The notes below the pieces were generated by a model. That model did not search any database and was not told the origin of the DNA. It worked only from the letters and a program-made list of their open reading frames with translations. Both the position numbers and the translations under genes were made by a program. A stretch of DNA of 64,000 bases from assembly GCF_009914755.1 (NCBI RefSeq), contig NC_060931.1; one strand, given 5' to 3'. Numbering within the stretch: position 1 is the stretch's first letter; the number at the start of each line of letters is the position of its first letter. The DNA comes from the human T2T-CHM13v2.0 reference genome, Homo sapiens. Below, one piece after another: positions 57,900 to 62,898 of this stretch.

Positions 57900-58301
57900 T
57901 CAGTCTCTCACAAAAAAGACATTATATCCGAGTTCTGTTAAAGCCCCAGCCAGCAAGGCCCATAAAGGAATGAAGACATAGGATAGATTCATGGTAGTAA
58001 ACTGTTCCAGTTTAGCACAGAGTGCGAGGCAGAAGGCTAATTTAAGTAACATTGCAATGAGGTACCAGGCTTTTTTTTTAATATTGTGTGATCCATGTCG
58101 AGGGTCAAAGCCAGACTTACACCGCCCAGCCATTTTCACAATCAGCAGGACAAGAAGGATAGTATCAAATATCCAGACTGGAATAAATATGAGGAACCAG
58201 TTCCAAGGTGCTTTCTCATCCAGTTTCAACACCAACATGATCAAGAAGAGTAGTGTGAAAAGCCAGGTGAGTAGTACTCTCTGAGCCAAGGACATTCTCA
58301 T
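57900..58301 (-). CDS. TMEM60: Transmembrane protein 60 (133 aa, about 4 TM helices, TMEM185/TMEM203-related family); CDS lies in a single exon
   Basis: Intact ORF MRMSLAQRVLLTWLFTLLFLIMLVLKLD...WNWFLIFIPVWIFD...YVFIPLW...FFVRD*. The LKLD and FIPxW motifs are characteristic of the family. Confidence 0.97.
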   Translation of the reverse strand: MRMSLAQRVLLTWLFTLLFLIMLVLKLDEKAPWNWFLIFIPVWIFDTILLVLLIVKMAGRCKSGFDPRHGSHNIKKKAWYLIAMLLKLAFCLALCAKLEQFTTMNLSYVFIPLWALLAGALTELGYNVFFVRD

Positions 58302-58351
58302 TTAAACAGTTTAAAGAGGCTGTTGCAGGATCGGAAAAAAGGAAATATACC
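58302..58351 (-). other. TMEM60: TMEM60 exon 2, 5'UTR portion and splice acceptor
   Basis: Minus strand reads ctttttctccttctcttAG|GGTATATTTCC, with the AG at 58353-58352. Confidence 0.85.
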
Positions 58352-62180: not shown

Positions 62181-62360
62181 CTGGCAGCGCTGCCGGCCGG
62201 AAAGCGGAGAGGGACGCGAAGATCAGCAAATTCGCCAGTTTGGATCCTTGTCCTTTTCCGCCCTTTTCCCCCCATTAAATCCAGAACCCGTCACATGATA
62301 ATTAAGAAAAAACTTCAGTTCCGCCTCCTCAAACGACTGCGGTAGAGGATCTCTCAGTTC
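62181..62360 (-). other. TMEM60: TMEM60 exon 1 (5'UTR; 5' end approximate)
   Basis: Perfect minus-strand donor CAG|gtgagt at 62181/62180 inside the CpG island. Confidence 0.8.
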
Positions 62361-62699
62361 TACCTCAGTGCCGCGCCCACATCCGGGGCTGGTTCTCACC
62401 GCCCCTGAGCCTACCCTATAGGTAGAGAGGACGCCAATCTGGATTCAGAGGTCCCTTTTCCGCGGTAATTGGACCATTTGTCCGCCAGTGCAAACCAACC
62501 GACCTTTCCTTACTTTCGGGTTCGACAGAAAGGCGGCAATAAAAAGACCCATTGGTCCCGCCTCTCTACTGTCACGGGTTAGTAGGGAAGTCAGTCCAAG
62601 ATCAGCCTGGAGTTTCCGTGCTCCCATTGGGCCCACAGATGTTAATCAGAGCAGCCGGCGCTCAGCTCCGCCCTCTCGGGACGCCCCGCCCCTCCTCCC

Positions 62700-62898
62700 A
62701 TCCTCCCTGCCCGCGCGCAGTGACTGCAGGCTCCGGCGCAAAATCCTGCGGGAGAGGGGGTGGGGCAACCCTCTGGAGGCAGCGCGCCCGCGGGCAGCCT
62801 CGTTGTGGCTCCTTGGGCTCTGTTGGCGGCGGCGCTAGCTTCGGAGTCTCCCGCGCGCACCTCAGCCGCCTCCTAGCGGCGCGGCGCTCGCTCCTACG
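62700..62898 (+). other. PHTF2: PHTF2 non-coding exon 1 (start approximate)
   Basis: GC-rich, ATG-free segment ending at donor ACG|gtaaga (62899). Gene identity rests on the recalled head-to-head TMEM60/PHTF2 arrangement; no PHTF2 coding sequence is in the window. Confidence 0.7.

What the first reader, a model, noticed from the sequence alone, without database searches (positions are those of the whole stretch)
62273..62296. AUG-UGA start-stop element ahead of the overlapping uORF: an ATF4-like leader in TMEM60
Seen in sequence: the minus strand reads aattatcATGTGA (62296-62291, A at -3), 15 nt upstream of the overlapping-uORF ATG. Established: a short, reinitiation-permissive uORF followed by an inhibitory overlapping uORF is the ATF4/ATF5 delayed-reinitiation design. 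Inference: ribosomes that use the start-stop element would tend to bypass the nearby uORF and reinitiate at TMEM60 about 160 nt later. The ratio of TMEM60 to microprotein could then depend on ternary-complex availability (eIF2alpha phosphorylation). The 15-nt spacing is much shorter than in ATF4, so the element may act as a constitutive bypass rather than a stress switch.
Basis: partly seen in the sequence, partly recalled or inferred. Interest (0 to 1): 0.7.

Follow-up and report, generated by a model that had tools for sequence, protein, structure and literature searches.

The report
Known DENR-dependent start-stop in TMEM60 leader
A start codon followed at once by a stop sits in the leader of the human TMEM60 message; it is already published as a DENR-dependent one-codon upstream frame, and it likely acts as an always-on gate, not an ATF4-like stress switch.

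Summary
In detail: ATG-TGA at 62296-62291 (minus strand), A at -3, 15 nt before the ATG (62275) of a 76-codon uORF that overlaps the TMEM60 CDS out of frame, and 160 nt before Met1. Both parts are in print. The start-stop is TMEM60 uORF #3 of Schleich 2017, a 1-aa 'stuORF' whose leader reporter needs DENR-MCTS1. Endogenous TMEM60 translation efficiency halves in DENR-knockout HeLa cells (log2FC -1.01). The overlapping uORF is Ribo-seq ORF c7riboseqorf64: translated, conserved, negative PhyloCSF. The ATF4-like stress-switch reading is not supported. Under arsenite TMEM60 has Z 0.68 against ATF4's 8.16. Under tunicamycin its efficiency changes 0.83-1.09-fold against 5.9-fold (low counts). The gap is 15 nt against ATF4's 87. 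Best reading: a constitutive DENR-MCTS1-dependent gate that likely lets part of its ribosomes skip the overlapping uORF. The bypass is untested, and a 17-nt gap in Asb8 still allows reinitiation. One new point: the printed primer puts the overlapping uORF in frame with luciferase in the 2017 reporter, so that reporter could not test the interplay.

The parts
62291..62296 (-). Start-stop ATG-TGA (1-aa uORF); Schleich 2017 TMEM60 uORF #3; Bohlen 2020 ENST00000257663_3_212
   Evidence: mapping to the published position; TIS score 94
62276..62290 (-). 15-nt spacer (5 sense codons) keeping the start-stop in frame with the overlapping uORF; stop context UGA-C
62181..62275 (-). Exon-1 part of the overlapping uORF c7riboseqorf64 (ATG 62275, T at -3, G at +4, TIS score 70)
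   Evidence: orthologous ORFs
58216..58351 (-). Exon-2 part of the overlapping uORF; ends 86 nt inside the TMEM60 CDS
58299..58301 (-). Annotated TMEM60 Met1, weak context (TIS score 63)
58293..58295 (-). In-frame Met3, strong context (TIS score 100); likely a second, perhaps main, start
57900..58301 (-). TMEM60 CDS, 133 aa (PF10269 in all 120 listed homologues)
   Evidence: hub annotation
62181..62361 (-). TMEM60 exon 1 (RefSeq select); start-stop lies 65 nt after the annotated 5' end
   Evidence: hub annotation
62365..62382 (-). 5-aa uORF, only on the longer leader (5' end 62507) used in the DENR papers
62445..62477 (-). 10-aa uORF, only on the longer leader

Best explanation
The ATG-TGA in the TMEM60 leader is a start-stop element that likely captures a sizeable share of scanning ribosomes under all conditions, and DENR-MCTS1 likely clears them so that they rescan, partly skip the overlapping-uORF ATG 15 nt downstream and reinitiate at TMEM60. 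Shown in sequence: position, frames, spacing. Shown in print: the leader reporter needs DENR/MCTS1; endogenous TMEM60 translation falls about 2-fold without DENR; the overlapping uORF is translated; no ISR induction in two tables. Inferred: that this codon pair is what confers the DENR dependence (it is the only 1-aa uORF, but no mutant was seen), and that reinitiating subunits partly skip ATG 62275. With a 15-nt gap most skipping would already happen in unstressed cells, so lowering ternary complex would add little. Output would be set by DENR-MCTS1 activity and start-codon stringency rather than by eIF2alpha phosphorylation.
For: Published as uORF #3, 1 aa, carrying all 25% of the predicted DENR dependence; the other 2 listed uORFs 0%; reporter fell on DENR and more on MCTS1 knockdown (figure values not seen; PMC6547434 says the fall was in the predicted range). 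DENR KO HeLa: log2FC TE -1.01, rank 127, flagged hit (517 genes were hits). TIS scores 94 (start-stop), 70 (overlapping uORF), 63 (Met1), 100 (Met3). Arsenite: TE fold change 0.23 against a median of 1/5.4, Z 0.68, threshold 4; ATF4 1.3, Z 8.16. Tunicamycin: TE ratio 0.83, 1.06 or 1.09 for the 3 possible untreated column pairs, ATF4 5.88. Gap 15 nt against 87 nt in ATF4. Toy delayed-reinitiation model: stress/basal 0.59-1.64 in 12 TMEM60 settings, 1.24-4.36 in 6 ATF4 settings (invented parameters, illustrative only). Reinitiation improves with distance up to 79 nt (Kozak 1987 as cited in PMC3561293). Start-stop reporters respond minimally to stress (PMC13338717).
Against: Asb8, a start-stop 17 nt before its CDS, reinitiates in about two-thirds of terminations in vitro (29 vs 13%), so a short gap need not cause skipping. 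40S build-up on this stop codon in DENR KO is 0.70 log2, rank 2316 of 9982, not among the 891 hits. Mouse Tmem60 TE fell only about 8% on Denr knockdown. Its score of 94 is at the edge: Schleich's text says uORFs under 94-95 give no DENR dependence. A DENR effect can also be a roadblock by unrecycled 40S rather than lost reinitiation. No start-stop mutant of TMEM60 was found in the texts searched. ISR counts are low (88 to 25.5 reads; 54 reads against 49-126) and CDS counts may include the 86 of 402 nt shared with the uORF.
Confidence: 0.5

Rival explanations
1. Plain gate, no bypass: the start-stop is a DENR-dependent repressive gate that lowers flux to everything downstream; subunits that rescan are competent within 15 nt and split between the overlapping uORF and TMEM60 just as leaky scanners do.
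For: Asb8 17-nt gap with efficient, DENR-dependent reinitiation; DENR-MCTS1 is proposed to remove the minimum-distance requirement (review PMC5972666, speculative there); mutating start-stops raised reporter output in 3 of 3 example genes. Explains the DENR and ISR data as well as the best reading; the toy model gives a reinitiation share of at least half in 12 of 18 settings with or without skipping.
Against: Distance dependence up to 79 nt (secondary citation); the ATF4 start-stop lowered uORF2 translation (though that readout cannot separate gating from skipping).
Confidence: 0.33
2. ATF4-type delayed-reinitiation stress switch: low ternary complex makes post-start-stop subunits skip the overlapping uORF and induces TMEM60.
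For: Order of elements matches ATF4 (short uORF, then out-of-frame overlapping uORF); DENR dependence is shared with ATF4; a mild effect of up to about 1.3-1.6-fold is inside the Poisson limits and arsenite TE is 1.24-fold above the median.
Against: No induction or resistance in 2 of 2 ISR tables; gap 15 vs 87 nt; overlapping ATG in a below-median context (70) unlike ATF4 uORF2 (G at -3, G at +4).
Confidence: 0.06
3. Readthrough feeder: because the start-stop is in frame and its stop is UGA-C, readthrough would send ribosomes into an 83-codon form of the overlapping uORF and so repress TMEM60.
For: Same frame, no other stop in the spacer; UGA-C as a leaky context is recalled, from no call; P0133 has Gln (CAR) next, which keeps C at +4.
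Against: Same frame arises 1 time in 3 by chance; termination at start-stops looked normal genome-wide; none of 5 non-identical full-length orthologous ORFs starts 7 codons earlier.
Confidence: 0.04
4. Near-neutral motif: the ribosome mostly leaks past it, and the DENR effect on TMEM60 is indirect or due to other features.
For: Start-stops are common; T at +4 favours leaky scanning (58% in Asb8); 40S accumulation not significant; small mouse effect.
Against: Reporter and endogenous data agree in human cells; strong TIS score; a non-human spliced copy appears to keep the ATG and its context.
Confidence: 0.07

Closest known systems
DENR-MCTS1-dependent 1-aa stuORF / start-stop elements (Schleich 2017 PMC5473865; Bohlen 2020 PMC7494916; Rendleman 2026 PMC13338717)
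   Same: It is a listed member: TMEM60 uORF #3, 1 aa, strong context, DENR/MCTS1-dependent reporter, DENR-KO hit.
   Different: Those papers, in the parts seen, do not list or discuss the overlapping uORF 15 nt downstream; Table S3 gives 3 uORFs and omits ATG 62275.
Human ATF4 leader (start-stop, uORF1, overlapping uORF2)
   Same: Short upstream element, then an out-of-frame uORF overlapping the CDS; DENR dependence; a start-stop is present in both.
   Different: Gap 15 vs 87 nt (start-stop to uORF2 156 nt); no separate 3-codon uORF1; weaker overlapping ATG; no ISR induction.
Asb8 start-stop (Meurs 2025 PMC11790910)
   Same: DENR-dependent start-stop with a very short gap (17 nt) to the next ATG; little eIF2alpha-P effect.
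   Different: In Asb8 the near ATG is the CDS; in TMEM60 it is an inhibitory overlapping uORF.
KSHV ORF35-37 uORF2 and HBV C0 (PMC3561293 passages); C/EBPalpha/beta uORFs (named in a review passage; mechanism recalled)
   Same: A short uORF routes ribosomes past a nearby ATG to a distant one, constitutively; closest working analogy for the bypass reading.
   Different: KSHV uORF2 overlaps the skipped ATG, which forces the bypass; here the stop ends 15 nt before it, so skipping is only kinetic.

Membership tests
Start-stop / 1-aa stuORF, DENR-MCTS1 target | ATG directly followed by a stop in the 5' leader of the expressed mRNA | tested here: met
   listed among 9982 uORF stops with 40S footprints in HeLa
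Start-stop / 1-aa stuORF, DENR-MCTS1 target | Strong initiation context | tested here: met
   Noderer score 94 (87-102), row 15,183 of the ranked table, same as the consensus control; borderline by Schleich's cut-off
Start-stop / 1-aa stuORF, DENR-MCTS1 target | Main-ORF translation falls on DENR/MCTS1 loss | tested here: met
   Published data read here: reporter, endogenous log2FC TE -1.01; mouse only about 8%
Start-stop / 1-aa stuORF, DENR-MCTS1 target | Dependence is lost when this ATG is mutated; 40S accumulates on the stop in DENR KO | tested here: inconclusive
   No mutant found; 40S ratio +0.70 log2, not a hit
ATF4/ATF5 delayed-reinitiation leader | Short reinitiation-permissive uORF upstream of an out-of-frame uORF overlapping the CDS | tested here: met
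   overlapping ORF translated per catalogue row
ATF4/ATF5 delayed-reinitiation leader | Gap long enough for basal reinitiation at the inhibitory uORF (87 nt in ATF4) | tested here: not met
   15 nt
ATF4/ATF5 delayed-reinitiation leader | Translation induced or resistant when eIF2alpha is phosphorylated | tested here: not met
   Z 0.68 under arsenite; TE ratio 0.83-1.09 under tunicamycin; low counts, mild effect not excluded
ATF4/ATF5 delayed-reinitiation leader | Mutating the first uORF lowers, mutating the overlapping uORF raises main-ORF output | not testable with these tools
   needs reporters
Conserved peptide-coding uORF (functional microprotein) | Protein-coding selection or peptide detection | tested here: not met
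   PhyloCSF -79.64 (primates), -841.45 (mammals), 0 MS studies; exon-1 identity 14-27 of 31 in 5 orthologous ORFs, high identity mostly where it overlaps the CDS

The most novel reading that the evidence does not exclude
The start-stop is a protective decoy: placed 15 nt ahead of a conserved inhibitory overlapping uORF, it raises TMEM60 output by carrying ribosomes past that ATG, making DENR-MCTS1 level the dial for the TMEM60 : c7riboseqorf64 ratio. It would be an activating start-stop, opposite in sign to the repressive norm, and hidden so far because the published reporter fused the uORF to luciferase.
Probability: 0.25. Interest if true: 0.5.

Novelty: already known. Interest (0 to 1): 0.22.

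Why it matters
The element and its cofactor are known, so the finding adds little as a discovery. Its use is as a compact natural test of an open point: how soon a 40S leaving a start-stop can recognise the next AUG, and whether DENR-MCTS1 makes it competent at once. TMEM60 has only two leader ATGs, 15 nt apart, with readable outputs in two frames. The frame check also flags that the 2017 TMEM60 reporter likely scored initiation at the inhibitory ATG as signal, which may explain why its predicted and measured effect (about 25%) is smaller than the endogenous 2-fold drop.

Tried and rejected
Retrocopies in the human genome that might keep an older leader: none, only the locus itself, for exon 1 and for exon 2. 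RNA structure: leader MFE -67.1 against shuffled -68.8 +/- 4.8, z +0.37, 200 shuffles; the start-stop lies in a mostly unpaired stretch; no special hairpin claimed. A functional 76-aa microprotein: rejected on PhyloCSF and MS columns. Direct DNA conservation of ATG-TGA across mammals could not be tested: no mammalian genomes are held; only protein-level proxies were available. The sigma-70 promoter scan does not apply to a human promoter and was ignored; the true major TSS was not tested (no CAGE data). Kozak 1987 and Calkhoven 2000 are not held. Supplements of PMC13338717 and PMC13010147 were unreadable, and those of PMC6547434 and PMC11790910 were not opened; any of them may list TMEM60's start-stop, its footprints or the mouse leader. 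Earlier scan findings were not available. TMEM60+PHTF2 literature: 11 papers listed, none on translation by title or abstract start.

Full report
Observation. The minus strand reads ttaattatc ATG TGA cgg at 62296-62291. On the spliced RefSeq model the leader is 231 nt with 2 ATGs: the start-stop (mRNA 66) and ATG 62275 (mRNA 87), 15 nt after the stop. The second opens 76 codons that cross the intron and end at 58216, 86 nt into the CDS, out of frame; Met1 is 160 nt after the start-stop. Both upstream ATGs share one frame. In 20,000 dinucleotide shuffles of the leader a start-stop arose in 3.9%, one upstream of an overlapping uORF in 1.05%, with a gap of 20 nt or less in 0.125% (post hoc criteria). 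Start-stops occur in 1417 of about 19,000 human genes (PMC13338717). The motif is common; the pairing is less so, but expected in some genes by chance.

The element is in print. A search for TMEM60 with uORF gave 3 records, 2 listed. Schleich 2017 (PMC5473865) lists 3 TMEM60 uORFs at 25, 120 and 206, of 10, 5 and 1 aa, with predicted DENR contributions 0, 0 and 25%. Mapping their leader onto the window (5' end 62507) puts ATGs at 31, 126 and 212, each 6 more than the listed position, and 212 is 62296. Their leader reporter fell on DENR knockdown and more on MCTS1 knockdown (text only). In Bohlen 2020 (PMC7494916) endogenous TMEM60 is a hit in DENR-KO HeLa: log2FC TE -1.01, ribosome occupancy -0.65, RNA +0.29, rank 127 (517 genes were hits). 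Against: 40S accumulation on this stop is +0.70 log2, rank 2316 of 9982, not among 891 hits, and mouse Tmem60 TE fell only about 8% (PMC6547434).

The overlapping uORF is catalogued as c7riboseqorf64, biotype uoORF, 'conserved', 0 MS studies, PhyloCSF -79.64 and -841.45 (PMC10032668 supplement); its peptide equals the one computed. 'Conserved' there is sequence similarity, which 30-35% of overlapping ORFs meet. Protein searches add independent support for the ATG and spacing. A red deer gene model begins with the exon-1 part (18 of 31 identical). Of 13 hits to a 76-aa relative, 1 is identical to human, 5 non-identical ones start at the aligned Met-Gly with the Met1-overlapping residues at the same position 49, 1 starts 4 codons later, 5 match only the exon-2 part, and 1 (P0133) is a frameshifted spliced copy. 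These are 90% clusters from mostly unnamed contigs, not species counts. P0133 reads FFLIIM-W-QVLDL where human reads FFLIIM-stop-RVLDL; 4 of its 5 Trp align to human TGA codons (2 of them on weak local matches), so I infer a gene caller reading TGA as Trp and an intact ATG-TGA in a non-human copy. Its DNA was not seen; this is weak evidence. Selection therefore seems to act on the ATG and frame, not on the peptide.

Start-site strengths from Noderer 2014 (PMC4299517 supplement): start-stop 94 (consensus control 94), overlapping ATG 70, Met1 63, Met3 100. The score for the start-stop was measured without regard to the stop.

Test of the ATF4 reading. From the genome, ATF4 has 57 nt from its start-stop to uORF1, 87 nt from uORF1 to uORF2 and 184 nt to the CDS (the last two match PMC11790910). 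TMEM60 has 15 and 160. Arsenite (PMC4383229): TE fold change 0.23 on 88 to 25.5 reads, Z 0.68; median 1/5.4; threshold Z 4; ATF4 1.3, Z 8.16. Tunicamycin (PMC4341466): I saw the count rows but not the column labels; taking columns 3-4 as tunicamycin from the ATF4 peak and scaling by ATF4's published fold changes, TMEM60 TE changes 0.83, 1.06 or 1.09 for the 3 possible control pairs (95% Poisson limits 0.53-1.59 overall), ATF4 5.88. A 2-fold induction is excluded on counting noise alone; a mild one is not, and CDS counts may include uORF footprints over 86 of 402 nt. Start-stop reporters in general respond little to stress. A toy model with invented parameters gave stress/basal 0.59-1.64 in 12 TMEM60 settings and 1.24-4.36 in 6 ATF4 settings.

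Bypass or plain gate. Distance dependence up to 79 nt (Kozak 1987 as cited in PMC3561293) argues that many subunits leaving the start-stop skip an ATG at +15. Asb8 argues the other way: 17-nt gap, 29% reinitiation against 13% loss, mostly DENR-dependent, in vitro. The DENR effect does not decide: a reinitiation share of at least half arises in 12 of 18 toy settings across both regimes, and the single start-stop mutant lowers output in 10, raises it in 7. I put partial bypass at 0.5, plain gate at 0.33, the constitutive DENR-dependent reading together at about 0.83.

A new detail. The printed reverse primer adds 5 nt between the leader and the luciferase ATG. That moves ATG 62275 from 145 to 150 nt upstream, in frame, with no stop between. 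If the assembled leader equals Table S3, the overlapping uORF became an N-terminal extension of luciferase, contrary to the paper's general statement that no uORF forms a fusion, and Met1/Met3 were replaced by a strong context (98). So that reporter likely measured reinitiation at either ATG and could not show the interplay. Internal assembly primers are not printed, so this is inferred.

Not found in print: a description of the start-stop acting on the overlapping uORF of TMEM60, in searches TMEM60+uORF, TMEM60+translation+ribosome profiling (19), TMEM60+open reading frame (29), TMEM60+PHTF2 (53), start-stop+overlapping uORF+bypass (60), TMEM60+DENR (66); TMEM60 is absent from the main text of PMC13338717 and PMC11790910. 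The library lacks most subscription papers, and unseen supplements (PMC13338717, PMC13010147, PMC6547434, PMC11790910) may bear on this.

What I saw of each paper: PMC5473865 parts 1-2 of 5, Plasmids section, supplement 3 whole, rows of 2 and 4; PMC7494916, PMC4383229, PMC10032668 passages and supplement rows; PMC4341466, PMC4299517 supplement rows only; PMC13338717 abstract, sections 26, 28, part 1 of 30, passages; PMC11790910 section 9 and passages; PMC6547434, PMC5972666, PMC10275272, PMC3561293 passages; PMC13010147 search listing only; Kozak 1987 and Calkhoven 2000 nothing.

Verdict: real, already known as a DENR-MCTS1-dependent start-stop; works likely as a constitutive gate with partial bypass; fails two defining tests of the ATF4 family. 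Interest 0.22.

Noticed in passing
window 58301-58293 (-): TMEM60 begins Met-x-Met with a weak Met1 (63) and strong Met3 (100). Among 120 homologues, 109 matched the anchor motif; all 109 have the Met3 equivalent, 84 show Met-x-Met, 22 start at Met3, 3 lack Met1. The real main start may be Met3.
   Followed up: partly
window 62275 (-) and PMC5473865 Table 1: The published TMEM60 luciferase reporter appears to put the overlapping uORF in frame with luciferase (150 nt, no stop).
   Followed up: yes
window 62507-62362 (-): The longer leader used in the DENR papers adds 10-aa and 5-aa uORFs; the 5-aa uORF's stop, upstream of the RefSeq 5' end, has 40S footprints in HeLa, so some transcripts start further up.
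   Followed up: partly
window 62291 to 62181 (-): The start-stop's TGA lies 110 nt upstream of the only exon junction, a position that could invite NMD by the 50-55 nt rule (recalled); the overlapping uORF crosses the junction. Not tested.
   Followed up: no
window 62275-62177 (-): If the intron is retained the overlapping uORF stops after 32 codons at a TGA formed in the splice donor.
   Followed up: no
window 62361-62700: TMEM60 and PHTF2 are head to head, annotated 5' ends about 340 nt apart (hub table); listed in a head-to-head gene paper (listing only).
   Followed up: no
protein P0133: Spliced, frameshifted non-human TMEM60 leader copy, likely a retrocopy translated with TGA as Trp; P0008, P0017 and P0052 ('TMEM60-like' in rat, degu, bat) also look like retrocopies, while human has none.
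   Followed up: partly
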